From: an uncultured Candidatus Saccharibacteria bacterium
GTDB taxonomy: Bacteria; Patescibacteriota; Minisyncoccia; Phycocordibacterales; UBA6899
NCBI GenBank assembly: GCA_964386905.1
Contig: CAYLUP010000001.1
Coordinates: forward strand, 19,905 to 83,904
Direction: 5' to 3'
DNA length: 64,000 nt
Part shown: positions 10,837-43,613 of the stretch, in pieces
Layout of the letters: every line of letters begins with the position of its first letter
Numbering within the stretch: the first letter of the stretch is position 1
Translations under genes and position numbers: made by a program
The notes under the pieces: generated by a model
The model's database searches: none
Told to the model about the DNA's origin: nothing
Seen by the model: the letters and a program-made list of their open reading frames with translations, nothing else

Positions 10837-12642
10837 ATGAGAAAGTTGTTTCAAAAAAGAACATTAATTCAAGAAGACATCGCTCCTGATGAAATTTTTT
10901 TGGATGATAGAAATATGCCAGGTTTCGATGTTCAACAGTTCGAAGGGAGAATCGAGAGACCAATATCGCGTTATTCAATGTATGCGCTTGGTGGTATGTT
11001 TGTTGTTATTGTCTCATTGTTTTGGTGGAAAACTGCATCATTACAGATTGCACAAGGTGATCATTATGCGTTGCAGTCTATGCGAAATAAAATTGATGAG
11101 TATTACATTTTCCCAGAACGAGGTGTTATTCGTGATCGAAATGGAACACCCTTGGCCTGGAATACCCCAAATGAAGAAGGAGAAAAGTCTGATTTTGCAA
11201 AAAGAAAATATATTGACAAGACTGGTTTTGGGCACGTCCTTGGATATCTCGGTTATCCACTCAAGGACAAGAACGGCTTATACTACCAAAAGGAGTATAC
11301 TGCGGTCAGTGGTGTAGAGTCACAGTACCACTCACTATTGTCTGGGACAATAGGGAAACATCTCGTGGAAGTTGACGCGCGTGGGCACGTTGTCTGGTCC
11401 AATACTGTCATCCCACCAACCCCGGGAAAAGACATTACACTTTCCATTGACGCAGATATCCAACATGCGCTTCATGAACAGATTGCATCTATTGCAAAAA
11501 CTGGAGATTGGAAGGGCGGTGCTGGTGCAATTATGGATATTGATACTGGGGAACTTCTCGCCCTGACATCATTCCCTGAGTTTGATTCGAATGTGATGAC
11601 GGAGCGAACGGATGTGGAGTTGATGCAAAAGTACAACAGTGATAAGCGCGCACCATTTATGAACAGAGCTGTTGCCGGCCAGTTTACACCTGGATCAATT
11701 GTAAAGCCTTTGCTTGCACTTGCAGGTCTTCAGGAAAAGCTCATCACCGAACACACAACAATTGTATCGACAGGTAAGCTCGTTATTCCAAATCCGTATT
11801 TCCCAGATAAGCCGAGTGTGTTCACTGATTGGAAGGCTCATGGTCCAATGACTGTTCGAGAGGGCATCGTATATTCTTCCAATGTATTCTTTTATGAAAT
11901 CGGGGGAGGTTTTGGTTCTCAGAAAGGGCTCGGCATACAAAAACTTGAACAGTGGTATCGGCAATTTGGGTATGGCGCACCAACAGGAATTGATTTAGAA
12001 GGTGAGGCTGAGGGTATTTTACCAAATCCAGCATGGAAAGAGCGGGTGTTTAATGGGGATCCATGGAGAGTTGGTGACACATACTTTACGAGCATCGGTC
12101 AATATGGCGTGCAGGCAACTCTCCTCCAGCCACTCGTTGCTGTGGCCGCAATTGCAAACAGTGGAACTATTCTTACTCCTCATCTCAAGCAAGGTGGTGA
12201 ATACCCAACACGAAAGCTCCCGATTCTTGAGAAACACTTTGTTCCTGTGCAGGAGGGGATGCGCGCTGCAGTGACGAAGGGAACAGCGAATGTCCTTGCA
12301 ATGAATGGTGTCCGTATTGCAGCAAAAACAGGAACCGCAGAATTGGGGGTTACAAAACGCCGTGTCAATTCATGGGTGATAGGATTTTTCCCCTTCGAAA
12401 AACCAAAGTACGCGTTTGCTTTAGTGATGGAGCATGGTGTAAAAGGAGACACAAAAAATGCCAGTTATACAATGAGACGTTTTTTTGACTGGTTAGCAGA
12501 TGAACGTCCAACAATGCTTGGTCTCAAAGAGAAAAGAGAAGAGCCAAAAGAGGAAATTGCTGGTCGCGATGAGGAAGCCGAGGCTCCAAGCCCACTTGAA
12601 TTACACGCATCAGGAACCACACCCACAGCACCTTCCAATTAG
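10837..12642 (+). CDS. mrdA: Penicillin-binding protein 2 (peptidoglycan D,D-transpeptidase), with a low-complexity acidic C-terminal tail.
   Basis: TM anchor. Dimerisation domain. Transpeptidase motifs including SIVKP (SxxK), SSN and KTGTA. Start moved to MRKLFQKRT just after the mreD stop. Confidence 0.88.
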   Translation: MRKLFQKRTLIQEDIAPDEIFLDDRNMPGFDVQQFEGRIERPISRYSMYALGGMFVVIVSLFWWKTASLQIAQGDHYALQSMRNKIDEYYIFPERGVIRDRNGTPLAWNTPNEEGEKSDFAKRKYIDKTGFGHVLGYLGYPLKDKNGLYYQKEYTAVSGVESQYHSLLSGTIGKHLVEVDARGHVVWSNTVIPPTPGKDITLSIDADIQHALHEQIASIAKTGDWKGGAGAIMDIDTGELLALTSFPEFDSNVMTERTDVELMQKYNSDKRAPFMNRAVAGQFTPGSIVKPLLALAGLQEKLITEHTTIVSTGKLVIPNPYFPDKPSVFTDWKAHGPMTVREGIVYSSNVFFYEIGGGFGSQKGLGIQKLEQWYRQFGYGAPTGIDLEGEAEGILPNPAWKERVFNGDPWRVGDTYFTSIGQYGVQATLLQPLVAVAAIANSGTILTPHLKQGGEYPTRKLPILEKHFVPVQEGMRAAVTKGTANVLAMNGVRIAAKTGTAELGVTKRRVNSWVIGFFPFEKPKYAFALVMEHGVKGDTKNASYTMRRFFDWLADERPTMLGLKEKREEPKEEIAGRDEEAEAPSPLELHASGTTPTAPSN

Positions 12643-12669
12643 AAGACATTTATGTTATAGTTCGCACAT

Positions 12670-13134
12670 ATGAATACTCCACAGGAATATTTGAGCAAAG
12701 AAAAACACGATGAGCTCGTAGCAGAGCTCGATCTTTTGACAAGAGTTCGTCGAAAGGAAATTGCTGAGGCCCTCGAAGCAGCAAAGGCACTTGGTGACCT
12801 TTCTGAGAATGCAGAGTACCATTCAGCCCGCGAAGCACAAGCCGCATTGGAAGAGCGTATCTCTATGCTTGAAGAGATTCTTCGTACAGCAATTGTGGTT
12901 GGTGCACATCATAAGAAAGATACAATTGATATTGGTGCACAAGTGGCAGTTACAATAGGTGGGAAGAAAACAATATACACGCTTGTCGGGTCAGAAGAGA
13001 CTGACGTCGCTTCAGGGAAAATCTCAAATCGATCACCCCTAGGTGAAGCGCTCATGGGTAAAAAGAAAGGCGATAGCATTTCTTACAAGACTCCCATTGG
13101 AGTTCAAGAGTGCACGATTGTATCATTTGAATAA
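12670..13134 (+). CDS. greA: Transcription elongation factor GreA.
   Basis: LTRVRRKEIAEALEAAKALGDLSENAEYHSAREAQA coiled-coil plus a C-terminal FKBP-like domain, 154 aa. Confidence 0.93.
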   Translation: MNTPQEYLSKEKHDELVAELDLLTRVRRKEIAEALEAAKALGDLSENAEYHSAREAQAALEERISMLEEILRTAIVVGAHHKKDTIDIGAQVAVTIGGKKTIYTLVGSEETDVASGKISNRSPLGEALMGKKKGDSISYKTPIGVQECTIVSFE

Positions 13135-13142
13135 TTATTCCA

Positions 13143-13215
13143 GTAAGTAGTAAGTAGTAAGTAGGCTCATGTATGTTGAGTATATTACTTACTACTTTAT
13201 ACTTACTTTTATTTT
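13143..13215 (+). terminator. Long hairpin built from AGTAAGT heptamer repeats, followed by a U-run directly abutting the lysS ATG.
   Basis: AGTAAGTAGTAAGTAGTAAGTAG ... ACTTACTACTTTATACTTACT, about 21 bp stem, then TTTTATTTTATT. Confidence 0.6.
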
Positions 13216-13218
13216 ATT

Positions 13219-14682
13219 ATGGCTTCATTAGAAGAAATCCGCTCCGAGCGAATCAAAAAGCACGATGCTCTTCGAGCAAGAGGTGTGAACCCATACCCAT
13301 CTCGTGTACCACGAACGCATGCGCTTCGCGTTGTGCGTGAACAGTTTGTCTCGCTTGAAAAAGAATCGCATGTAATTTCTTGTGTTGGGCGCGTGATGGC
13401 AATCCGCGGTCAGGGAGCGATTCAGTTTATTGTATTAAATGATGGGACTGCTGAGTTGCAGGCCGTGCTTAAGCGTGACGAAATTGGGGAAGAGCAGATG
13501 GGGTTTTTTGGCGAGGTTGTTGATATGGGGGACTTTGTTTCTGTCACAGGAGTTCCATTTACGACTCAGCGTGGAGAGATGAGTATTCTCGTTCAGTCGT
13601 GGGTTATGGCCTCAAAATCCTTATTGCCTCTCCCTGATAAATGGGCTGGTCTTCAAGATGAGGAAGAGAAGATGCGCAAGCGCTATCTCGATATCCTGAC
13701 GAATCCGGATTTGAAAGAGTTGTTTATTAAGAAGGCAAAGTTCTGGCAGGCGATGCGAACCTTCTTGATGCAAGAAGGATTTCTTGAAGTTGAAACTCCT
13801 GTTCTTGAAGTGACGACAGGCGGTGCTGATGCACGTCCATTTGCCTCACATCATTGGGCTCTCGATATTCCCGTATTTAATCGTATTTCTTGCGGTGAGC
13901 TTTGGCAAAAGCGCCTTATGGTTGCTGGATATCCTAAAACATTCGAGATTGGACGTATATTTCGCAATGAAGGAATGAGTCCTGAGCACGCACAAGACTA
14001 CACGCAAATGGAGTGCTATGCTGCGTGGGAAAATTTTGAAGAAGGGATGGATTTTGTTGAGCGGCTGTATAAATATGTCGCATTTGAGGCATTTGGTAAA
14101 ACAGAATTTGAAATTCGAGGTTTTCATATCGACCTTGGAAAGAAGTGGGAGCGATATGACTACGCAGAGAAGATCAAAGAGATGACTGGTATTGATATCA
14201 CTTCAGCAACCCAGAAAGAACTTGACGCAAAGCTTCATGAACTAAAAATAAAGTTTGATCCAAAAGGTTGGAATCGCATGCGCGCGATAGATAACTTGTG
14301 GAAATGGTGTCGTAAGCAGATTGCCGGGCCAGGATTTCTTATTAACGCTCCTGTTGAGATGGCACCGCTGGCGAAGGTGGCAAAAGATGGTAAGACTGTC
14401 GAGATGTACCAGCCAATTATTGCGGGTTCTGAAGTGGGAAGGGGATACAGTGAGTTAAACGATCCGCTTGACCAAAGACGTCGTTTTGAAGAACAGCAAG
14501 CCATGCGTGATGCCGGAGACGAAGAAGCACAGATGGCAGATTGGGAATTTGTTGAAGCGCTTGAGCATGGAATGCCGCCAACGTCAGGATTTGGTGTGTC
14601 AGAAAGACTGTTTTCGTTCTTGGCAAATATGCCTATTCGAGAAGCACAACTTTTCCCACTCGTAAAACCCAAAGGGGAATAA
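13219..14682 (+). CDS. lysS: Lysine--tRNA ligase, class II.
   Basis: N-terminal OB anticodon-binding domain. Class II motifs (FRNEG, GGADARPF, ELNDP). 487 aa. Confidence 0.93.
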   Translation: MASLEEIRSERIKKHDALRARGVNPYPSRVPRTHALRVVREQFVSLEKESHVISCVGRVMAIRGQGAIQFIVLNDGTAELQAVLKRDEIGEEQMGFFGEVVDMGDFVSVTGVPFTTQRGEMSILVQSWVMASKSLLPLPDKWAGLQDEEEKMRKRYLDILTNPDLKELFIKKAKFWQAMRTFLMQEGFLEVETPVLEVTTGGADARPFASHHWALDIPVFNRISCGELWQKRLMVAGYPKTFEIGRIFRNEGMSPEHAQDYTQMECYAAWENFEEGMDFVERLYKYVAFEAFGKTEFEIRGFHIDLGKKWERYDYAEKIKEMTGIDITSATQKELDAKLHELKIKFDPKGWNRMRAIDNLWKWCRKQIAGPGFLINAPVEMAPLAKVAKDGKTVEMYQPIIAGSEVGRGYSELNDPLDQRRRFEEQQAMRDAGDEEAQMADWEFVEALEHGMPPTSGFGVSERLFSFLANMPIREAQLFPLVKPKGE

Positions 14683-14705
14683 AAACACGCGAAGGCGTGT
14701 TTTTG
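14681..14705 (+). terminator. Rho-independent terminator after lysS.
   Basis: aaaaACACGCgaagGCGTGTttttg. Confidence 0.75.
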
Positions 14706-14911
14706 TTATTGTGCTTTGCTTCGAGCTTTACTGGCCATCCGAGCATAAAAGATTCCCAGGAAGGGGAGTTTTTTGATGAAGACAATATTACTCACGACTA
14801 AAGACTCATACCTCATGACTGATACGGGAAATTATTTCGCGACGTTATTTTCATGGCCAAATATGGCCGTCATACGGAAGTGGGGCATGTGGATAACTTT
14901 TTTGTTGCATA

Positions 14912-14957
14912 ATGGGGGAGAGTGGGATAAAATGGGAACATGTGGGAGAAAGTGGGA
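14912..14957 (+). promoter_or_regulatory. Array of five TGGGR direct repeats with exact 10 bp periodicity. Putative MraZ-box operator upstream of mraZ.
   Basis: ATGGGGgag aGTGGGAtaaa ATGGGAacat GTGGGAgaaa GTGGGAagc. Repeat starts fall near 14912, 14922, 14932, 14942 and 14952. Confidence 0.45.
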
Positions 14958-15257
14958 AGCCTGAGGAACAAATCATCAGCCACACTGCATGTCGCACGGA
15001 TAAAACGATATCGAAAGGTATGTGGGTACCGATCGATGTCGTCCGAGCGACACCTTGGTGTTGGTGTGTCATCTGCTGGTGTATGACACATCAACATCAG
15101 GGTGCCGCTTCGACAATTATTTTTCGCGCCTCTTCCGCTGTTTCGATATACAACTCACTCGATGTACTCCGAGTACATCTCGCTAGAGTTTGTATATCTC
15201 CAACAGCGGAATATGCATCGAAAAAGAATTGCCGATTACGCAATCCAATATTCAATT

Positions 15258-15692
15258 ATGTTTATCGGTGAATACACACATACGATAGATGAAAAGAAAC
15301 GCCTTTCTGTCCCGGCGAAGTTTCGAAAGGAGCTCGGAGAGAAGGCGGTTATTACATATGGTCTCAACAAGGCACTGACTCTCTATCCACTAGAAGAGTG
15401 GGAAACGTATGCAAATAAGCTTGCTGGACTTTCGGTGGGAAATCCGGAAGAACGTGCATATGCACGTACAATGCTTTCTGGAGCGTTTGAGGTGGAGCTC
15501 GACAAATCTGGGCGCATTCTCCTTCCACAGCAATTGACGCAGTACGCACAGATAGATGCGCGTGTCGTATTTACAGGAATGCACAAATACGTCGAATTGT
15601 GGGATGAGGCAACATGGAACGCATACCGTACATCTATTGTTCCGCAAGCAGATAGTTTGGCAGAATCACTCGGTTCACGAGGGGCAATCTAA
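15258..15692 (+). CDS. mraZ: Transcriptional regulator MraZ.
   Basis: MFIGEYTHTIDEKKRLSVPAKFR, plus a second MraZ half-domain (ILLPQQL...VVFTGMHKYVELW). Start moved to an internal ATG. Confidence 0.88.
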   Translation: MFIGEYTHTIDEKKRLSVPAKFRKELGEKAVITYGLNKALTLYPLEEWETYANKLAGLSVGNPEERAYARTMLSGAFEVELDKSGRILLPQQLTQYAQIDARVVFTGMHKYVELWDEATWNAYRTSIVPQADSLAESLGSRGAI

Positions 15693-15697
15693 GATAT

Positions 15698-16603
15698 ATG
15701 GATGAACCATTGACGCACGTGAGCGTGCTTTATCAAGAGTGCCTTGATGCATTGCAGTTACTCCCCGGGAAAACAATCGTTGACGGGACGTTCGGCGCAG
15801 GGGGTCATAGTAAAGGTATTGCATTAAAGATTGGGAAGACTGGAACACTTCTTTCGTTTGACCAAGACAAGACGGTCTTTGAAAAACCAGTCGCAGAAGA
15901 AATTCATTCGCTTACACATTTCATTCCTGTCGTTTCGAATTTTCGTTATGCAGATATACATGTAAGAGCTGCGGGCATAGAGAAAATTGATGGTGCGCTC
16001 CTTGACTTGGGGCTGTCGAGCACGCAGCTCGAACATTCAGAACGAGGTTTCAGTTTCAAACGAGACGAACCATTGTTTATGACGTTTTCTGCAGAGCCAG
16101 AACATGCCGATGTAACCGCAGAGACTGTCGTGAATGAATGGCAAGAAGAGGTGATTGCAAATGTCTTGTATGGTTTTGCAGAAGAAAAATTTTCTCGCCG
16201 AATAGCGCGAGCAATCATTGATGAAAGACAAAAGAAGCGCATACGAACAACAGGAGAGCTTGTAGATATTATCCAGCGTGCAACACCAGGATGGTATCAC
16301 CATGGTAAAACGCATTTTGCAACTCGCACGTTCCAGGCACTTCGTATGGCAGTTAACGATGAGCTCGGAAGTATTGAGGACGGCGTGTCTGGTCTTCTTG
16401 CGCTTTCGCATCCTGGAACCCGCATTGCTATCATCACCTTTCATTCAGTTGAAGATCGACTTGTTAAACATCTCTTTCGCAATTTAATCGATGGTCAAAA
16501 AGCATCTCTTGTATACAAGAAACCCCAGGCAGCTTCAGATGAAGAGTTGCGCAAGAACCCTCGATCTCGAAGTGCAAAATTACGAGTTATTGAAATTTTA
16601 TGA
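15698..16603 (+). CDS. rsmH: 16S rRNA (cytosine1402-N4)-methyltransferase RsmH.
   Basis: VDGTFGAGGHS SAM-binding motif. Conserved position after mraZ. Confidence 0.92.
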   Translation: MDEPLTHVSVLYQECLDALQLLPGKTIVDGTFGAGGHSKGIALKIGKTGTLLSFDQDKTVFEKPVAEEIHSLTHFIPVVSNFRYADIHVRAAGIEKIDGALLDLGLSSTQLEHSERGFSFKRDEPLFMTFSAEPEHADVTAETVVNEWQEEVIANVLYGFAEEKFSRRIARAIIDERQKKRIRTTGELVDIIQRATPGWYHHGKTHFATRTFQALRMAVNDELGSIEDGVSGLLALSHPGTRIAIITFHSVEDRLVKHLFRNLIDGQKASLVYKKPQAASDEELRKNPRSRSAKLRVIEIL

Positions 16604-16721
16604 GAATACCTATCACCGTACAACATACTATTCGCCCTGTCATTCGTATCTGGAATCGCACAAGCGGTAAGCCTAGGAAGCGATCGTTCTTTGCACGCAT
16701 TGTAAGGGTTTTTGCATAAAT

Positions 16722-17078
16722 ATGAAACAATATTTTCGTACACAACTGAATACGTTGACATACCATTTTGAGCAAAAAGCACAAACACTTTTTATTGTTT
16801 TTGCTTGTGTGTTCGCAACAAGTTTCATTACGTATATGTTTTTCGTTGTATCTTCATTGTCGTCGGGATTTTCATATCAACATATTCGAAAGGATATCCG
16901 CTCGGCAGAAACTCGTATTGCACAGCTTGAAGCGGATCGGATCATGAATATGAAAGCGGTAGATCTTTCTCTGGCCAAGGAACACGGTTATCAAGACATT
17001 GTTCCATCCCGATACATATCACAAAAAGATACTCGAGAGCGATTTTCACTTCGAACTGGTAAAGTCCATGAAGAATGA
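16722..17078 (+). CDS. ftsL: Cell division protein FtsL-like (single TM plus coiled coil).
   Basis: TM (LFIVFACVFATSFITYMFFVV) then a coiled coil (AETRIAQLEAD). Located between rsmH and ftsI. Confidence 0.55.
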   Translation: MKQYFRTQLNTLTYHFEQKAQTLFIVFACVFATSFITYMFFVVSSLSSGFSYQHIRKDIRSAETRIAQLEADRIMNMKAVDLSLAKEHGYQDIVPSRYISQKDTRERFSLRTGKVHEE

Positions 17079-35273: not shown

Positions 35274-35319
35274 AGGGGTGTAGTGATTAGTGAACAGTGA
35301 TAAGTGAATAGAAGAATGC

Positions 35320-35535
35320 AGTGGTTGGTGGGTAGTGGATAGGAAGAAGAGAATAGAGGATAGACAATGGTAAGAAAAGTTTCTCGTTGCAAGTTCCAAG
35401 TTGGACACAAATGCATTGTCATTGCGAAGACGACCTGTACCCGGGTCGTCTGTGGCAATCCAGGACTGCATTTTGTATTACCTTGAACTAAAACTATTTG
35501 GCAATCTAGGACTGTATCTGTCTATCTCTGTAGCT
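35320..35535 (+). repeat. Copy 1 of a repeated structured element, immediately upstream of rplU. A purine-rich GTGGNNN heptamer and GAGAATAGAGGATAGACA block forms its left end. A conserved 57 nt core lies in the middle. An inverted pyrimidine-rich copy of the end motif (CTGTCTATCTCT) forms its right end.
   Basis: About 85-90% identity to 40643..40790. Core AATGCATTGTCATTGCGAAGACGACCTGTACCCGGGTCGTCTGTGGCAATCCAGGAC with internal hairpin GACGACC/GGTCGTC. TTGGCAATCYAGGACT occurs twice. Confidence 0.6.
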
Positions 35536-35610: not shown

Positions 35611-35916
35611 ATGACATTCGCAGTTATTACCACGGGTGGCAAGCAATATAAGGTTGCAGTAGGTGATGTTCTCAGTGTTGAGAAGCTCGACGCAGAGGGT
35701 TCAGTTACGTTTGACAAGGTATTGCTTGTGGACGACGGTTCTTCAACGAAAGTTGGTACACCGTTTGTCGCAGGTGCACAGGTTACCGCAGACATCGTTG
35801 AGCACGGCAAGGGTCCTAAGATCTATGTCGTTCGCTACATGCCAAAGAGCCGCTGGGCAAAGAAAAACGGTCACCGACAGCCATTTACAAAGATCAAAAT
35901 CACTGGAATCAAATAA
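35611..35916 (+). CDS. rplU: 50S ribosomal protein L21.
   Basis: MTFAVITTGGKQYKVAVGDVL... Candidate promoter TTGCTT-N16-TATACT lies 8-40 nt upstream of the ATG. Confidence 0.9.
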   Translation: MTFAVITTGGKQYKVAVGDVLSVEKLDAEGSVTFDKVLLVDDGSSTKVGTPFVAGAQVTADIVEHGKGPKIYVVRYMPKSRWAKKNGHRQPFTKIKITGIK

Positions 35917-38785: not shown

Positions 38786-39238
38786 ATGAAGTACGTAGAA
38801 TATCTTGCGCAGCTTCCCGAACATTTTTGTCCTTTTTGTGAGGCGGCAGAGAGAGTTATTTCTGAACAGTCACTAAGCTTTCTGACATACGCACGTGCAC
38901 CGTATCAGAAGCATCATCTTCTTGTGGTTCCCAAGCGACATGTCGAACACTTCCTCGATTTGTCACGAGGTGAATTATCTTCTATTGAGTATGGAATACG
39001 CGAAGCCTTCTCTCTTTTGCATGAACTCGGATATCACGACATTTCTGTATTAGTTCGAGATGGGAAAGTGGGGGATGTGCGATCGGTCGCTCATGTGCAT
39101 TATCACGTGATTCCAGAACACCATATTGGAGATTTAGATATTGATGGCAAAGAACGCACTGTTCTTGAAGGGGAAGACATTGTCTTGCTTCTTGATGAGC
39201 TTCGTAAACATCTTCCGAAATACAAAAATCACCTCTAA
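38786..39238 (+). CDS. HIT-family (histidine triad) nucleotide hydrolase/transferase.
   Basis: CPFCE zinc motif plus the HVHYHVIP histidine triad. Confidence 0.8.
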   Translation: MKYVEYLAQLPEHFCPFCEAAERVISEQSLSFLTYARAPYQKHHLLVVPKRHVEHFLDLSRGELSSIEYGIREAFSLLHELGYHDISVLVRDGKVGDVRSVAHVHYHVIPEHHIGDLDIDGKERTVLEGEDIVLLLDELRKHLPKYKNHL

Positions 39239-39302: not shown

Positions 39303-39809
39303 TTAGTGTTGAGCGAGTAATTCAATCCGGAGACCTTTTCTGCGCGCATGGCGTAAAACCTCATGAACGTGGTTATTTCTGTTGGTTGTAAATGCAAAGA
39401 CTTCTTCTGCAAGCTCGAGTTCTTTTTTGCGAGTACTGTGTTCCTTATTCACTCTAATGGTTTGCGATTCGTCCAGCTCTACAAAATTCTTTGGGTTCAG
39501 GACCTTGAGGTCCAGTAGAGCTGCCGCAAGACCATCGACAATTTCTGGAGTAATATGGCGGCTATGGTTTAGCCGGTCACGACACCATGCAATATAGCTT
39601 CGCAACTTAGTGGGTAAAATGACTTTTATCCGAGAGCCAGACGGATCAAAACGAAGTGCTTCGGTAATGGCGTAATAGTCAACGCCAGGTGAGCCCCCAG
39701 TTACTATACCAGCTCCATGAAGGAGTACCCATCGTACCGCCGCGCGGACATCTAGTTCTCTCTGCCGCGTTTCGGGTTCCTCGGATCCGGTAAACATGAT
39801 CCATTTCAT
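39303..39809 (-). CDS. SLOG/DUF2493-like Rossmann-fold protein (DprA/LOG/YspA superfamily). Paralog A.
   Basis: MKWIMFTGSEE...GIVTGGSPGVDYYAITEALR glycine-rich nucleotide-binding loop typical of the DprA/SLOG fold. Start could also be 39821. Confidence 0.55.
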   Translation of the reverse strand: MKWIMFTGSEEPETRQRELDVRAAVRWVLLHGAGIVTGGSPGVDYYAITEALRFDPSGSRIKVILPTKLRSYIAWCRDRLNHSRHITPEIVDGLAAALLDLKVLNPKNFVELDESQTIRVNKEHSTRKKELELAEEVFAFTTNRNNHVHEVLRHARRKGLRIELLAQH

Positions 39810-39864
39810 AGTATTGTACATTGCACCTCGCACAAAGAGCAATCATCGCACGAAGTGTTCGAGT

Positions 39865-40386
39865 TTATAATTGCTCTGTGACAGCGTACTTTCTCTGAAG
39901 TCCAATTTTGACTCCTCGGCGTCGCGCTTTCTCAACGAGCAGTTCGGTAGATACGCTATTATTGACCTGAAAAGCGTACACCTCTCCAACCGCACCAATC
40001 TGCCGAATGCGATTTGCAGTATACATTTCTTCTGAAACTTCATCGCCTGATGGAAGTTCAAAGAAATGTTCTGGACGCACCTTCTTTAATACCCTCAAGG
40101 CGCCTTCGAGATTATCTATCTCCTTTTTCGTCACAGGAGGGACACAAAGGTGCTTGCGATAGTAACGAATGTAGCTCTCGAGACCTGCGGGGATATAGAC
40201 TTTGACATGACCTCCAGTTGGGTCATAGCGTAACGCTTCTGTGAGCGCATAATAGTCGACTCCCGTGGAACCACCAGTCACTATACCATCGCCACGAATC
40301 AGTGCGCGGCGGACTTGAGCGCGAACATCTGCTTCGACGTTTACCGTCTTCAGCCGCCACGCTCCCGTGAACAGTATCCATTTCAT
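39865..40386 (-). CDS. SLOG/DUF2493-like Rossmann-fold protein. Paralog B.
   Basis: MKWILFTGAWR...GIVTGGSTGVDYYALTEALR. Clear paralogy to 39303..39809 through the first ~100 aa. Confidence 0.55.
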   Translation of the reverse strand: MKWILFTGAWRLKTVNVEADVRAQVRRALIRGDGIVTGGSTGVDYYALTEALRYDPTGGHVKVYIPAGLESYIRYYRKHLCVPPVTKKEIDNLEGALRVLKKVRPEHFFELPSGDEVSEEMYTANRIRQIGAVGEVYAFQVNNSVSTELLVEKARRRGVKIGLQRKYAVTEQL

Positions 40387-40642
40387 AAGTCTGCTTGTTA
40401 AACTACTAATGTGTGTTACTTGTAATTCTATATTTATTACACCTGATAGTGCGTATTCTTTCAATCACAGTGCGTCCACTTCGGAGCATGTGGATAATTA
40501 TTGGGTTGCTGGTGACGAAGGAAAGGGGATATTTTGAAGAAAAAAATAAAATCTTCGTGCATTATGCACAGACCTGTGGATAACTCGCGTGACAGTGTCG
40601 AATAGTGTGTATAGAGAATTTAGGGGGATGAAATGAATACTA

Positions 40643-40993
40643 GTGGAGAGTGGATGGTGGATGGTGGATAGGAAGAAGAGAATGGGGGATAGGGGATAGA
40701 GAATGGTAAGAAAAGTTTCTAGTTGAAAGAAAATGCATTGTCATTGTGAAGACGACCTGTACTCGGGTCGTCTGTGGCAATCCAGGACGATGTTGGTATT
40801 TCGTATGAACTAAAACTAAAACTCATACTAAAACTACTCTTGGCAATCCAGGACTCTATTGGCGTAATCATCTACTGGCTTTTCCGCCTGCAATGTGCTA
40901 TAAATGTATGGCTCGAAAGAGTAAAAAGCGAATAGCGAATAGCGAATAGAGTTTGTTGCATTTTCTATTCTCTATCCTCAATTCTCCATTCTC
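40643..40993 (+). repeat. Copy 2 of the repeated structured element, upstream of tRNA-Gln. Its left end is purine-rich (GTGGAGA GTGGATG GTGGATG GTGGATAGG...GAGAATGGGGGATAGGGGATAGAGAATGG). Its right end (CTATTCTCTATCCTCAATTCTCCATTCTC) is an imperfect inverted copy.
   Basis: Shares the 57 nt core (2 mismatches) and the duplicated TTGGCAATCCAGGACT with copy 1. The terminal inverted repeats are about 30 bp with roughly 75% complementarity. A GCGAATA x3 heptamer array lies inside. Confidence 0.6.
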
Positions 40994-40995
40994 AA

Positions 40996-41040
40996 AATTC
41001 ATTACCAGATCGTCTAAAGGTAAGAATGGCCTTTCAGGCA
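40996..41040 (+). repeat. Partial degenerate duplicate of the tRNA-Gln 5' half.
   Basis: AATTCATTACCAGATCGTCTAAAGGTA (27 nt) is identical to 41190..41216, then diverges (AGAATGGCCTTTCAGGCAC versus GGACAGAGGCCTTTGAAGCC). Confidence 0.6.
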
Positions 41041-41196
41041 CCAGGCATTCTTGCCCGAAAATGTCTCGCCACCGCGAGCCAGTTCAACTCGAGCAATCAC
41101 TGCGTTCTTGCTCTTACGGGTAGGAAAGAGGCAAGCCTCTGTCTGTCGTTTGTGTGTTGTGCTGTGTGGGGAATATTGTTCGAAAATATAATTCAT

Positions 41197-41267
41197 TACC
41201 AGATCGTCTAAAGGTAGGACAGAGGCCTTTGAAGCCTTTAATCTAGGTTCGATTCCTAGTCTGGTAA
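41197..41267 (+). tRNA. tRNA-Gln, anticodon TTG.
   Basis: Acceptor TACCAGA/TCTGGTA. Anticodon arm GAGGC-CTTTGAA-GCCTT. T-arm CTAGG-TTCGATT-CCTAG. CCA not encoded. Confidence 0.85.
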
Positions 41268-41272
41268 CAAAT

Positions 41273-41304
41273 ACAAAAAAAGATACGTAAGTATCTTTTT
41301 TTTG
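41273..41304 (+). terminator. Terminator after tRNA-Gln.
   Basis: aaaaaaAGATACgtaaGTATCTttttttt. Confidence 0.75.
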
Positions 41305-41422
41305 TATTCAAATAGGTTGTGATCAAAAAACTTTTCACATGTCATTGACTCCATTACATATTTCCATTAGTCTTGAAAAAGGTTGTTCAACTATTCACCA
41401 TACCCTGGAGGCTCGTGTGAGC

Positions 41423-41784: not shown

Positions 41785-43038
41785 TTATTTCTTCCTCTTG
41801 TCTTCTTTCAATACAAACACATCATCTCCAGCTTTGAGTGTCTTTCCAACTTTGATCGCGACACGATCTCCCTGAACTGCTTTTTTGACTTGCTTGTGGT
41901 CTTTTTCCATTGACACAATGCTTTCTTCGTAACTTCCTGTTGAACTTCCTTGATAAATAAGTGTATCTCCAGTCTTGATGGGAGTGTCTCCCTGGACGGT
42001 GATTTCTGCAACTTGGATATTTTTGTAGAACTTTATGACTTTACCAACGTGTACCTTTTTCTGCTTTGCTTCATTTCCGCCGGTCTTTGTCCATTCATTG
42101 ATTGGCTTTCCGAGGAAAAAACCTGAACTTTGTCCGCGATGATACACCGTGTCGAGTTCTGCATTGAGTGTTTCTTTGAGTCGCGAGAGTTCCTCTTTGA
42201 ATGTTTTGTCGTGCTTTTTTGCTGCGTAGATAAAATCGACAATCTTGCGATATGCAGAAACGACATGCGCGACGTACTCTGGGCTGCGATTGCGTCCTTC
42301 AATCTTCAGACAGTCAACATCTGCTTCGAGAATCTGGTCAATAAAATCTATTGTTCGAAGATCTTTTGGGCTCATGACGTAGTCTGTGCCCAAGAGAAGC
42401 TCTGCGTCTCCGTCGGCTTGTTTGATGAGGTACTGTCTTCTGCATGGCTGTGTACACTCTCCGCGATTTGCGGATTTTCCACAGGTAAATTGTGACATAA
42501 AACAGCGTCCAGACATGGATACACACATCGCACCATGAATAAAGATCTCAATCTGTGCTTTGGTTTCTTTCCGAATCTGTTTAATCTGCTCAAGGGAACA
42601 TTCACGGGCGAGGACAACACGCGTTGCTCCGAGTTTCTTGTAGAAGTTTGCCGCCGTGCTATTTGCAATACTTGCTTGTGTACTGATGTGAAATTCAAGC
42701 TTGTGTTTCTTTGCAAGTTCAATGACAGCGAGGTCCCAACAGATAACCGCAGTAATGCCAGCTGCTTTGACTTTTTGTAACAATGCATCAACCTTCTTTA
42801 CCTCATTGTTGTAAATAATAATATTCAGCGTGAGATAGGTTTTAATCTTTGCCTCATTCGCAATGCGTGCAATTTTCTTTAAATCACCAACAGTAAAGTT
42901 CTTGGCATTGGCGCGCATATTGAATCCTTGGATTCCAAAAAATACTGCGTCCGCACCACTGTTAATCGCAGCGGTTAAGGATGTCCAGTCTTGAATTGGA
43001 GCAAGAATTTCTGGCTTCTTTTTTATGTTGATTTTCAT
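41785..43038 (-). CDS. Peptidase U32 family protein (PrtC/YegQ-like, possibly the tRNA-modifying U32 type).
   Basis: N-terminal TIM-barrel region (ILAPIQDWTSLTAAINSGADAVFFG). U32 Cys-rich signature E.FIHGAMCVSMSGRCFMS...C. C-terminal beta-domain. Confidence 0.82.
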   Translation of the reverse strand: MKINIKKKPEILAPIQDWTSLTAAINSGADAVFFGIQGFNMRANAKNFTVGDLKKIARIANEAKIKTYLTLNIIIYNNEVKKVDALLQKVKAAGITAVICWDLAVIELAKKHKLEFHISTQASIANSTAANFYKKLGATRVVLARECSLEQIKQIRKETKAQIEIFIHGAMCVSMSGRCFMSQFTCGKSANRGECTQPCRRQYLIKQADGDAELLLGTDYVMSPKDLRTIDFIDQILEADVDCLKIEGRNRSPEYVAHVVSAYRKIVDFIYAAKKHDKTFKEELSRLKETLNAELDTVYHRGQSSGFFLGKPINEWTKTGGNEAKQKKVHVGKVIKFYKNIQVAEITVQGDTPIKTGDTLIYQGSSTGSYEESIVSMEKDHKQVKKAVQGDRVAIKVGKTLKAGDDVFVLKEDKRKK

Positions 43039-43148
43039 ACAATATGGGTATTGTATCGCATATGAAATATCTGTGTATATGGTGCCTTTCTTTTGTGTGT
43101 GTCACAAAGTGGGGCACTGTTTGTTTTGTCTGTATATTCCATACGCTT

Positions 43149-43613
43149 ATGAATAAAAACACATATATTACCATCGCAATCGTGTGCGTTTTTGCAGTGG
43201 CTCTTACGGGTATTTTCTTATACGCAAAACGGAGCGCAGCTCCTGTGCCCCCAGTCGTTGAGACGGGGGAGGAAGGAGTGCTTGCTGCCTATACGGATGA
43301 GAGCTGGAAAACCATGATACCAGAATCATGCCTATCGTATTATGATGGGTGTAATACCTGTACGCGAGTCAAAGGACAAGCATCTGCGTCTTGTACAGAG
43401 AGGTATTGCACTGTGTACAGCAAACCACGATGTCTTGATCAAGATTCCGGTCCTTATACTAGTGAGAGCTGGAAGACCATTATTGATCAGAACTGCCGGA
43501 CGTTTAATGATGGATGCAATACCTGTACGCGCATGGACGATGGGGGTGCGGCATGTACGCGGATGATGTGTCAAGCATATGCTCGCCCAGAATGTCTTGA
43601 TGCAAAGGGATAA
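43149..43613 (+). CDS. Membrane-anchored/secreted protein with two tandem 6-Cys repeats (ESWKT-x-DGCNTCTR-x-C).
   Basis: N-terminal TM or signal (ITIAIVCVFAVALTGIFLY). Internal duplication ESWKTMIPESCLSYYDGCNTCTRV...CLD / ESWKTIIDQNCRTFNDGCNTCTRM...CLD. Confidence 0.6.
   Translation: MNKNTYITIAIVCVFAVALTGIFLYAKRSAAPVPPVVETGEEGVLAAYTDESWKTMIPESCLSYYDGCNTCTRVKGQASASCTERYCTVYSKPRCLDQDSGPYTSESWKTIIDQNCRTFNDGCNTCTRMDDGGAACTRMMCQAYARPECLDAKG

What the first reader, a model, noticed from the sequence alone, without database searches (positions are those of the whole stretch)
39303..41304. Compact accessory locus: two tandem SLOG/DUF2493-like paralogs, a bounded repeat element and tRNA-Gln with a duplicated 5' half
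Two diverged paralogs on the minus strand share MKWI(M/L)FTG and GIVTGGS(P/T)GVDYYA(I/L)TEALR. This is the glycine-rich loop of the DprA/LOG/YspA-like SLOG Rossmann fold. That fold is commonly found in phage, defence and nucleotide-signalling contexts and has no assigned function here. Directly beside them are three features. First, a 350 bp element with imperfect purine-rich terminal inverted repeats, which is a second copy of the element upstream of rplU. Second, a 27 nt exact direct repeat of the tRNA-Gln 5' end, 194 bp upstream of the intact tRNA. Third, GCGAATA x3 heptamers. The combination of tRNA, partial tRNA duplication, a bounded repeat element and duplicated SLOG genes looks like the footprint of an integration or recombination hotspot. 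It could alternatively be a small uncharacterised module such as a nucleotide-sensor or effector pair.
Basis: partly seen in the sequence, partly recalled or inferred. Interest (0 to 1): 0.62.

Follow-up and report, generated by a model that had tools for sequence, protein, structure and literature searches.

The report
Diverged DprA-like gene pair beside tRNA-Gln mimic
In a Patescibacteria (candidate phyla radiation) genome, two fast-evolving copies of an uncharacterised DprA-like nucleotide- or DNA-binding protein lie next to a strain-variable repeat region, and the apparent "half-duplicated tRNA-Gln" is the start of a conserved ~146-nt folded element, derived from tRNA-Gln, that matches no Rfam family.

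Summary

- **The B→A pair.** It recurs on three related contigs, with variable flanks.
- **The repeat element.** It is a lineage-specific intergenic repeat made of period-7 arrays and a GC hairpin. Only this copy has inverted arms. A near-identical strain has a different ~110-nt block in place of the GCGAATA×3 and pyrimidine arm.
- **The duplicated tRNA 5' half.** This is the most interesting part. It heads a ~146-nt element (41003-41148) that is 81% identical in a distant genome whose proteins are 38-48% identical. Six base pairs show compensatory changes and none is broken. Its first 23 nt match each host's own tRNA-Gln. Rfam and ARAGORN do not recognise it.

An integration scar is less likely, although a relative does carry a serine-recombinase island at its tRNA-Gln. 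I found no evidence for a defence or toxin-antitoxin module.

The parts
39303..39809 (-). Paralog A, 168 aa. Single-domain DprA/YpsA-like SLOG protein and the more degenerate copy. The second family motif AFQVNxSxGTxDT reads AFTTNRNNHVHEV.
39865..40386 (-). Paralog B, 173 aa. Single-domain DprA/YpsA-like SLOG protein lying upstream of A in a probable operon (55-nt gap, conserved at 55-56 nt in relatives).
40387..40600 (.). Upstream (5') region of B, with two perfect DnaA-box 9-mers (TGTGGATAA on the + strand) at 40489-40497 and 40575-40583.
   Evidence: 7 perfect boxes in the window against 0.59 expected. A perfect box is also upstream of B in L001, L002 and L003, where the surrounding DNA no longer aligns.
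40631..40857 (+). Intergenic repeat, copy 2. It consists of purine-rich period-7 arrays (GTGGATG, GGGGATA), a conserved hairpin at 40743-40781 (8-bp GC stem AGACGACC/GGTCGTCT), and two TGGCAATCCAGGAC motifs.
   Evidence: (D1-D3, D20).
35302..35516 (+). Intergenic repeat, copy 1. It lies between the stop codon of the upstream gene (35273) and the rplU promoter and gene (35611-35916). It has no inverted arms.
40678..40709 (.). Purine-rich heptamer arm, the left arm of the inverted pair. Present only in copy 2.
   Evidence: 32 nt, 81% complementary to 40962-40993. The 401-nt fold has z -5.5 (+) and -6.2 (-).
40886..40998 (.). Strain-variable block. It contains GCGAATA x3 (40928-40948) and the pyrimidine heptamer arm (CATTCTC x5, 40959-40993). 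In this strain the two arrays can also form a local hairpin.
   Evidence: In L004, which is otherwise about 100% identical, this block is replaced by CTCATGA-type heptamers that resemble the 3' part of copy 1. TRF. Local inverted repeat 40930-40950/40964-40984.
40996..41025 (+). 30-nt direct repeat of tRNA-Gln positions -7 to +23 (27 nt exact). Its partner is at 41190-41219.
   Evidence: (D7).
41003..41148 (+). Conserved ~146-nt structured element derived from tRNA-Gln. It has a 5-bp closing stem like an acceptor stem (4-8/139-143), a 14-bp long hairpin, two further hairpins, and a hairpin in the T-arm position (AGAGG-CAAG-CCUCU) that abuts the 3' strand of the closing stem.
   Evidence: 81% identical over 144 nt to L021:11825-11968, again directly upstream of tRNA-Gln. 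RNAalifold: 39 pairs, 6 with both sides changed, 0 broken. Column-shuffle z -4.5; 1 of 300 shuffles reaches 6 compensatory pairs. No Rfam hit at E<=10. Not called by ARAGORN, even with introns allowed and relaxed thresholds. tRNA-Gln genes align weakly end to end with the model.
41197..41268 (+). tRNA-Gln(UUG), intact, with a TATAAT hexamer at 41187-41192.
   Evidence: The hexamer was read directly from the sequence.
41275..41303 (.). Bidirectional intrinsic-terminator-like hairpin (A7-GATAC-GTAA-GTATC-T8) after tRNA-Gln.
   Evidence: Sequence. It also appears as the 3' part of the weak STnc130/FtrA alignments.

Best explanation
This is an ordinary chromosomal but recombination-prone stretch of a Paceibacteria (Patescibacteria/CPR) genome. 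It holds three unrelated things that happen to sit side by side.

(1) The gene pair. B and A form an operon of two rapidly diverged tandem duplicates of a Patescibacteria-specific 'mini-DprA' family, that is, the DprA/YpsA-type SLOG Rossmann domain on its own. Shown: the fold, the family membership, and the loss of many conserved positions. Inferred: the mainstream family binds or processes a nucleotide or single-stranded nucleic acid through the GGxxGVD loop and the NxSxGTxDT loop. Also inferred: B, and still more A, have lost that chemistry and now act as altered-specificity or non-catalytic binding partners of the mainstream copy. In relative L001 that mainstream copy lies directly next to them.

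(2) The 'duplicated tRNA-Gln 5' half'. It is the 5' end of a ~146-nt structured element derived from tRNA-Gln and located just upstream of the tRNA. Shown: sequence conservation and compensatory pairing across two distant genomes, and a 5' strand that tracks each host's own tRNA. Inferred: it is transcribed on the + strand, probably together with tRNA-Gln, and acts as a tRNA-like leader or small RNA. Its tRNA-identical 5' strand can pair either with its own 3' strand or with the acceptor 3' strand of the tRNA.

(3) The repeat element. It is a lineage-specific intergenic repeat built from period-7 arrays and a GC hairpin. It changes between strains by replacement of whole blocks, most likely through recombination among copies. 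It is not an autonomous or cleanly bounded mobile element.
For: Proteins.
- The profile search finds 190 clusters at 50% identity and 713 clusters at 90% identity.
- All 44 GTDB loci come from Patescibacteria MAGs. In every locus except the close relatives L001-L003 the gene is single-copy, and there is no conserved partner gene.
- 59 of 90 members hit PF02481. 12 of 20 hit TIGR00732 dprA. The family profile hits H. pylori DprA at E 1e-6.
- Of 84 conserved columns, B keeps 50 and A keeps 38, against a median of 83.
- The B→A tandem is found on L001-L003, and L001 also has a mainstream copy C.

RNA element.
- Element plus tRNA is the only extended nucleotide similarity between the 12.6-kb L021 locus and the 64-kb window.
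- 31 substitutions, 13 of them in paired columns, and none breaks a pair.

Repeat.

No mobile-element genes lie near the locus in the window. GC content shows no deviation and the GC skew shows no switch.
Against: - No transcript data exist, so the RNA status of the element is inferred from only two divergent sequences plus one identical strain.
- The element is absent from L129, whose SLOG protein is 75% identical to that of L021 and whose tRNA-Gln has the same acceptor stem. This patchy distribution, together with flanking direct repeats, would also fit an inserted element.
- RNAalifold favours structures that covary, and the minus strand folds almost as well (-33.8 against -37.0 kcal/mol).
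- The biochemical role of the protein family is unknown. The idea that A and B are non-catalytic rests only on lost conservation.
- tRNA-Gln is over-represented near family members (9 of 38 tRNAs in 51 loci). The three parts may therefore not be fully independent.
Confidence: 0.55

Rival explanations
1. Integration or recombination scar. A small element, or the remnant of a larger one, recombined into the 5' part of tRNA-Gln. This left attL (the 30-nt repeat), about 165 nt of element DNA, and attR (the rebuilt tRNA). Under this view the SLOG genes and repeats sit in a hotspot created by tRNA-targeted integration.
For: - Near-exact 30-nt direct repeats flank 165 nt.
- The element is present in L021 but absent from the related L129.
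- In L129 a Rep gene plus a large serine recombinase abut the 3' end of tRNA-Gln, and the recombinase gene overlaps the tRNA by 13 nt. The same SLOG...HIT-MFS neighbourhood is present there.
- The flanks vary: L001 has a third paralog where the window has the repeat and tRNA, L002 lacks the HIT gene, and L004 has a replaced block.
Against: - The duplicated part is the 5' end of the tRNA. From general knowledge, tRNA-targeted islands usually duplicate the 3' end.
- There is no integrase in the window.
- A dead 165-nt remnant should not stay 81% identical, with 6 compensatory pairs and no broken pair, between genomes whose proteins are 38-48% identical and whose other intergenic DNA cannot be aligned.
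- In each genome the upstream copy carries that host's own acceptor sequence (CCAG against CGGG). The element-specific differences from the tRNA (GGTAAGAATGG against GGTAGGACAG) are shared between the two genomes.
Confidence: 0.2
2. Decaying tandem duplicate. tRNA-Gln was duplicated in tandem and the upstream copy is a functionless pseudogene. The repeats and heptamers are neutral intergenic clutter.
For: - The model aligns weakly end to end with tRNA-Gln genes.
- Similarity to the tRNA continues into the anticodon-arm region (a 46-nt alignment).
- ARAGORN and Rfam do not call the element a tRNA.
Against: - The conservation and compensatory changes across distant genomes are the same objection as for the scar hypothesis.
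- Conservation ends sharply after the closing stem, near 41145.
- The extra ~75 nt is itself conserved and structured.
Confidence: 0.12
3. Defence or toxin-antitoxin module, or a nucleotide sensor/effector pair. A and B would act like ShosA/PsyrA antitoxins or the SLOG sensor domain of ThsA.
For: - 11 of 20 family members give weak PADLOC hits to ShosA and PsyrA (best E 8e-8).
- The gene pair evolves fast and sits in a variable region.
Against: - A and B themselves hit no PADLOC model.
- No PRTase toxin, SIR2, TIR or other effector gene is adjacent in the window or in 50 related loci.
- The mainstream family is single-copy, highly conserved (84 columns at >=90%) and sits among housekeeping genes. 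That pattern fits a core function better than a defence island.
Confidence: 0.08

Closest known systems
DprA/Smf Rossmann (SLOG) domain (PF02481, TIGR00732; e.g. H. pylori DprA 4LJK, R. palustris 3MAJ)
   Different: A and B are 168-173 aa and consist of the Rossmann domain only. From general knowledge, many DprA proteins also have an N-terminal SAM-like domain and C-terminal domains. A and B themselves score below every Pfam and NCBIfam threshold. There is no evidence of a role in transformation.
YpsA (B. subtilis, 2NX2; PF06908), the founding member of a SLOG clade
   Different: Only 9 of 90 family members touch PF06908, and weakly. YpsA belongs to Firmicutes and is linked to cell division and GpsB. 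No such context is seen here.
ShosA/PsyrA, the DprA-like antitoxin of the ShosTA/PsyrTA defence systems (8ZVA)
   Different: No adjacent PRTase-type toxin. A and B do not hit the models. The context is housekeeping.
tRNA-like structures and tRNA-derived RNAs, for example the tRNA-like domains of tmRNA or bacterial Y-RNA-like YrlA (comparison from general knowledge)
   Same: The 5' strand and D-arm region are identical to a real tRNA. There is a closing stem like an acceptor stem, and a hairpin in the T-arm position that abuts its 3' strand.
   Different: No match to any of 4227 Rfam families at E<=10. No cloverleaf is called. About 75 nt of extra conserved helices are present. The element sits in tandem with the tRNA it mimics, and its first 23 nt co-vary with that tRNA.
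Group I introns in Patescibacteria tRNA genes (PMC13011429)
   Same: Same phylum, and an unusual extra structured RNA associated with a tRNA gene.
   Different: Those introns interrupt tRNA-Asn and tRNA-Asp at position 35/36 and match group I models. Here the tRNA-Gln is intact, the element lies upstream of it, and no group I intron match is found.
REP/BIME- or MITE-like intergenic repeats
   Same: Short non-coding repeats with a GC hairpin. They occur in several copies in intergenic DNA and vary between strains.
   Different: Terminal inverted repeats are present in only one of the two copies. The element is built from period-7 arrays. No copy of the core 21-mer was found in the JGI metagenome contigs.

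Membership tests
SLOG superfamily (SMF/DprA-LOG) | Rossmann-type three-layer alpha/beta fold that matches solved SLOG proteins | tested here: met
SLOG superfamily (SMF/DprA-LOG) | Glycine-rich ligand-binding loop after an early beta-strand (GGxxGxD/E type; PMC6459960 cites the GxD/E signature) | tested here: met
   IVTGGS(P/T)GVD is present in both. G38, G39 and D44 are >=90% conserved in the 90-member alignment. G39, G42 and D44 are invariant and G38 nearly so in the 119-member alignment.
This Patescibacteria mini-DprA family (mainstream clade) | Second conserved loop AFQVNxSxGTxDT and the R125/H126/E129 and D75/N79/W80 positions | tested here: not met
   B has AFQVNNSVSTELL and has lost D75, N79, W80, R125, H126, E129, G146, D149 and T150. 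A has AFTTNRNNHVHEV. They keep 50 and 38 of 84 conserved columns, against a median of 83.
DprA (PF02481 / TIGR00732) | Score above the curated family threshold | tested here: not met
   A and B have no Pfam or NCBIfam hit. Homology is transitive, through relatives.
DprA (PF02481 / TIGR00732) | Multi-domain architecture and a role in loading RecA during transformation | not testable with these tools
   The proteins are single-domain, 168-173 aa. Function cannot be assayed here.
DUF2493 / YAcAr (PF10686) | Match to the family model | tested here: not met
   A and B have no hit. 1 of 90 relatives hits at E 0.0024.
ShosTA/PsyrTA or Thoeris-type defence | Adjacent toxin or effector gene (PRTase, SIR2, TIR) | tested here: not met
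   Neighbours are HIT, MFS, tRNA-Gln and U32. None is present in related loci. A and B have no PADLOC hit.
tRNA-targeted integrative island | Integrase next to the tRNA, a direct repeat of the tRNA 3' end, and cargo between the repeats | tested here: not met
   The window has no recombinase. The repeat is of the 5' end, and only 165 nt lie between the copies. A relative, L129, does have a serine-recombinase island at its tRNA-Gln.
MITE | Terminal inverted repeats in every copy, plus target-site duplications | tested here: not met
   Inverted arms occur only in copy 2, and copy 1 has none. The pyrimidine arm is replaced in strain L004. Target-site duplications were not specifically searched for.
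tRNA, or intron-containing tRNA (including Patescibacteria group I intron tRNAs) | Cloverleaf detected by ARAGORN or Rfam; group I intron model match | tested here: not met
   The element at 41003-41148 is not called in the default, intron or relaxed modes. Rfam gives no hit at E<=10.
Chromosomal replication origin (considered because of the DnaA boxes) | Change of GC-skew sign at the site | tested here: not met
   GC skew is positive across all 64 kb.

The most novel reading that the evidence does not exclude
The ~146-nt element is a new class of tRNA-derived regulatory RNA. It is transcribed just ahead of tRNA-Gln, and its tRNA-identical 5' strand can pair either with its own 3' strand or with the acceptor 3' strand of the tRNA. 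This would form a cis-acting switch, or decoy, that controls maturation or charging of tRNA-Gln. Glutamine charging is thought to be indirect in many CPR bacteria, through GatCAB, which reads U1-A72 and the D-loop (general knowledge, not tested here). The mini-DprA SLOG family is found unusually often near tRNA-Gln and could be functionally connected with it.
Probability: 0.15. Interest if true: 0.75.

Novelty: new variant of a known kind. Interest (0 to 1): 0.5.

Why it matters
- **An unannotated protein family.** This DprA-like family of several hundred clusters is restricted to Patescibacteria, a phylum with minimal genomes that depends on scavenged nucleotides and DNA. Its members carry no precomputed Pfam domain and none of the sampled mainstream members matches a Pfam or NCBIfam model above the curated cut-off. 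Sources label them 'hypothetical' or, apparently wrongly, 'CO dehydrogenase/acetyl-CoA synthase beta subunit'. The mainstream clade is very strongly conserved, which suggests an important function that nobody has studied. The B/A pair is a natural example of duplicates that are shedding the conserved site.
- **A candidate structured RNA.** The tRNA-Gln-derived element has no Rfam counterpart. It mimics the 5' part of its neighbouring tRNA and tracks that tRNA's sequence. If it is transcribed, it would be an unusual case of tRNA mimicry placed in cis to the tRNA itself.
- **A practical caution.** A partial tRNA repeat beside variable DNA is not automatically an integration scar.

Tried and rejected
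- **Replication origin or a DnaA-titration site.** Perfect DnaA boxes are enriched, but the GC skew never changes sign.
- **Diversity-generating retroelement.** This was judged by eye on alignment A1, not formally tested. The differences between the two repeat copies are not confined to adenines, and no reverse transcriptase turned up among the neighbouring genes scanned.
- **Known RNA families.** Rfam finds only the two tRNAs at gathering threshold over the whole window. At E<=10 over 40380-41340 it finds nothing credible.
- **tRNA with an intron, or tmRNA.** ARAGORN with introns allowed, in tmRNA mode and at relaxed thresholds gives only the real tRNA plus junk.
- **Coding potential of the element.** The + frame ORF (61 aa in the window) stops after 11 codons in L021, and the minus-frame ORFs are not conserved.
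- **More copies of the repeat core.** The 21-mer has 0 hits in the JGI metagenome contigs. Among the 48 loci held when it was searched, the 22-mer core is found only in L004.
- **More copies of the tRNA-like element.**
  - Two conserved 20-22-mers have 0 hits in viral contigs.
  - Covariance model R1 finds nothing new in 57 + 80 loci (1.7 Mb).
  - Three further contigs carrying the closest SLOG homologs have no tRNA-Gln.
- **Synteny through the U32 peptidase.** The nearest relatives, at 62-76% amino-acid identity, have already lost synteny.
- **Tool limits.** The afdb50 fold library was unavailable.
- **Long-range purine/pyrimidine pairing as a conserved RNA feature.** It is present only in this strain's copy 2.
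Full report
**1. Check of the observation**

The two minus-strand ORFs are real. A is 39303-39809 (168 aa) and B is 39865-40386 (173 aa). They are 43% identical (E 6e-43) and share MKWI(M/L)FTG and GIVTGGS(P/T)GVDYYA(I/L)TEALR.

- tRNA-Gln(UUG) is at 41197-41268.
- A 30-nt repeat, with 27 nt exact, lies 194 nt upstream and covers tRNA positions -7 to +23 (D7).
- GCGAATA x3 is at 40928-40948.
- About 225 nt of the region (40631-40857) is a second copy, at 79-90% identity, of sequence at 35302-35516 upstream of rplU.
- The motif TGGCAATCCAGGAC occurs twice in each copy, four times in total against 0.34 expected.

The inverted purine/pyrimidine arms (40678-40709 and 40962-40993) exist only in this copy. 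The rplU copy has none and does not fold better than shuffled sequence.

**2. The proteins**

A and B hit no Pfam, NCBIfam, PADLOC or PHROG model. A word-indexed search with A found only three relatives. All three are encoded directly downstream of a B-type gene, so the B→A tandem is conserved. The gap between the genes is 55-56 nt.

An exhaustive profile search found 190 clusters at 50% identity. A second profile search, built around B, found 713 clusters at 90% identity. The sources call them 'hypothetical protein' or 'CO dehydrogenase/acetyl-CoA synthase beta subunit', and none carries a precomputed Pfam domain.

Homology to DprA is supported in several ways:
- 59 of 90 aligned members hit PF02481, the DprA Rossmann domain. 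Small numbers hit YpsA, cpYpsA or LDcluster4, and only one hits DUF2493/YAcAr.
- The family profile hits H. pylori DprA at E 1e-6 through xVSGGALGVDxxA.

The SLOG call is therefore right, but the nearest relatives are DprA and YpsA rather than DUF2493.

Longer family members carry extra domains matching SAM methyltransferase, MazG-like, Mur ligase or, weakly, ASCH models.

All 44 loci recovered from GTDB species representatives are Patescibacteria MAGs (labelled Paceibacterota, Taylorbacteria, Nomurabacteria, Yonathbacteria, 'Saccharibacteria' and others). Each carries a single gene, in varied housekeeping contexts and with no conserved partner.

**3. A and B are degenerate offshoots**

In 112 mainstream members, 84 columns are at least 90% conserved, and members keep a median of 83 of them (minimum 69). 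B keeps 50 and A keeps 38. Among the losses is the second loop, AFQVNxSxGTxDT, which reads AFQVNNSVSTELL in B and AFTTNRNNHVHEV in A.

Relative L001 is 89% identical in nucleotide sequence across the B-A region. It carries a mainstream-type third copy (C) about 690 bp upstream of B. I infer that B and A arose by duplication of a mainstream gene and have lost its ligand or catalytic site. This inference rests on conservation alone.

**4. Plasticity of the locus**

- L001 stops aligning with the window at 40671, inside the purine arrays. It continues with different repeats and then C.
- L002 has A directly convergent with the MFS gene, with no HIT gene between them.
- L004 encodes an identical B protein and its intergenic DNA is about 100% identical. 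It differs only in a 5-substitution patch (40587-40599) and in a replaced block (about 40886-40998). In L004 that block lacks GCGAATA x3 and the pyrimidine arm, and instead carries CTCATGA-type heptamers that resemble the 3' part of copy 1.
- L129 has a SLOG protein 47% identical to B and keeps the SLOG...HIT-MFS neighbourhood. It has about 6 kb of extra genes that include a Rep protein and a large serine recombinase, and the recombinase gene overlaps the 3' end of tRNA-Gln.

The neighbourhood is thus recombination-prone, and tRNA-Gln is an integration site in a relative. The window itself has no recombinase, however. Its neighbours are L21, a Na/Ca exchanger, MFS, HIT and a U32 peptidase. GC content is unremarkable and GC skew stays positive throughout.

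**5. The 'duplicated 5' half'**

A BLAST search of the 200 nt between the repeat and the tRNA against all fetched loci hit L021 at 81% identity over 144 nt. L021 is MAG SKS1.bin43. It has the same layout: a copy of the tRNA 5' end, about 195 nt, and then tRNA-Gln(UUG).

This stretch plus the tRNA is the only extended nucleotide similarity between L021's 12.6 kb and the 64-kb window. Homologous proteins in the two are 38-48% identical.

The two genomes have different acceptor stems (TACCAGA/TCTGGTA against TACGGGA/TCCCGTA). In each genome the upstream copy carries that host's own version. The positions where the element differs from the tRNA (GGTAAGAATGG against GGTAGGACAG) are shared between the two genomes.

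RNAalifold predicts 39 pairs over 146 nt:
- a 5-bp closing stem formed by the acceptor-like 5' strand and GUCUG (GUCCU in L021);
- a 14-bp hairpin;
- two further hairpins;
- a hairpin in the T-arm position that abuts the 3' strand of the closing stem.

Six pairs change on both sides, one changes on one side, and none is broken. In a column-shuffle control the consensus energy has z = -4.5, and only 1 of 300 shuffles reaches six compensatory pairs. Sequence conservation ends just after the closing stem.

A covariance model built from the two sequences aligns tRNA-Gln genes weakly end to end, as expected for a tRNA-Gln derivative with about 75 nt of internal expansion. Rfam at E<=10 and ARAGORN, including its intron and relaxed modes, do not recognise the element. 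No ORF is conserved across it.

A single-sequence fold of element plus tRNA instead pairs the upstream 5' strand with the tRNA's own 3' acceptor strand. Two alternative pairings are therefore possible.

There are caveats. Only two divergent examples exist. The minus strand folds nearly as well. The element is absent from L129, which is a fairly close relative of L021, with SLOG proteins 75% identical.

**6. The repeat element**

TRF shows that period-7 arrays are a theme of this genome's intergenic DNA. They occur at 13142, 35281, 40650, 40685, 40927 and 40959. At 13142-13207, two inverted heptamer arrays followed by a T-run form a terminator-like hairpin immediately after a gene.

L001 has related but different repeats, (GTGGATA)n arrays and hairpins that end in ATCCAGGA. 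I read the element as a lineage-specific intergenic repeat that is reshuffled by recombination. It is not a bounded mobile element, and its function is unknown.

**7. Comparison with known systems and verdict**

- The proteins are a new subfamily, without any curated model, of the known SLOG/DprA superfamily.
- They fail the membership tests for DprA proper, for DUF2493 and for the ShosTA and Thoeris systems.
- The RNA-like element resembles tRNA-like structures but matches no curated family. It also differs from the group I introns recently described in Patescibacteria tRNA genes (PMC13011429).
I rate it lower because a dead scar should not show this level of conservation with compensatory changes.
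- Overall interest is moderate. The finding comprises a well-supported new protein subfamily and a thinly sampled but statistically supported candidate RNA.

Noticed in passing
window 40489-40497 and 40575-40583; also 14888, 25143, 26294, 29318, 60916: Perfect DnaA-box 9-mers (TTATCCACA) occur 7 times against 0.59 expected. Two lie within 200 nt upstream of B. A perfect box is also found upstream of B in L001, L002 and L003, where the surrounding DNA no longer aligns. GC skew shows no origin here, so this may reflect DnaA-dependent regulation or titration.
   Followed up: partly
51 SLOG-family loci (L001-L048, L129-L136), e.g. L012:4609-4680, L023:9701-9772, L131:9861-9932: tRNA-Gln accounts for 9 of the 38 tRNA genes found within about 10 kb of family members. 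In three loci it lies within 250 nt upstream of the gene. In the window it is 733 nt away. The count is not corrected for phylogeny.
   Followed up: partly
L129:~12500-18540 (ENA ERZ909598 groundwater contig): An island with a Rep-like protein (PF23343) and a large serine recombinase abuts the 3' end of tRNA-Gln, and the recombinase gene overlaps the tRNA by 13 nt. It lies in the same SLOG...HIT-MFS neighbourhood as the window. A 13-nt inverted copy of part of the tRNA sits at 12420-12432, near the likely far boundary.
   Followed up: partly
window 13142-13207: Two inverted heptamer arrays, (AGTAAGT)x3 and its complement, followed by TTTTATTTTATT, form a terminator-like hairpin right after a gene. 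This is the same period-7 building style as in the repeat element.
   Followed up: partly
window 40587-40599: Five substitutions within 13 nt, immediately after the second DnaA box, are one of only two regions of clustered difference between the window and the otherwise near-identical strain contig L004 (apart from one isolated substitution).
   Followed up: no
L002:1189-1230 compared with window 38786-39238: The HIT-family gene that separates A from the MFS transporter in the window is absent from relative L002. There A and the MFS gene are convergent and 41 nt apart.
   Followed up: partly
window 43044-43613 (+), internal repeats 43290-43366 / 43455-43531: A 189-aa Cys-rich protein contains two 165-nt-spaced internal repeats and a Pacifastin-inhibitor-like match (PF05375, E 1.5e-8). 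This is unusual for a bacterium.
   Followed up: no
Family members P0157, P0186, P0207, P0239, P0266: JGI names several members of this DprA-like family 'CO dehydrogenase/acetyl-CoA synthase beta subunit'. This looks like an annotation error that has propagated.
   Followed up: no
L021:8972-9646, L129:10864-11547, L132:9561-9998, L129:980-1294: Genes for TrmO-like tRNA methyltransferase, NUDIX and MazG-like proteins, and HIT in the window, recur beside or near family members. A SAM methyltransferase is a neighbour in about 10 of the related loci, and some family members are fused to methyltransferase or MazG domains. This hints at nucleotide or RNA metabolism.
   Followed up: partly
window 41785-43038 (-) and L054:1310-2992: A U32 peptidase-family gene lies close to tRNA-Gln both in the window and in a metagenome relative (66% amino-acid identity), but in a different orientation.
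   Followed up: no
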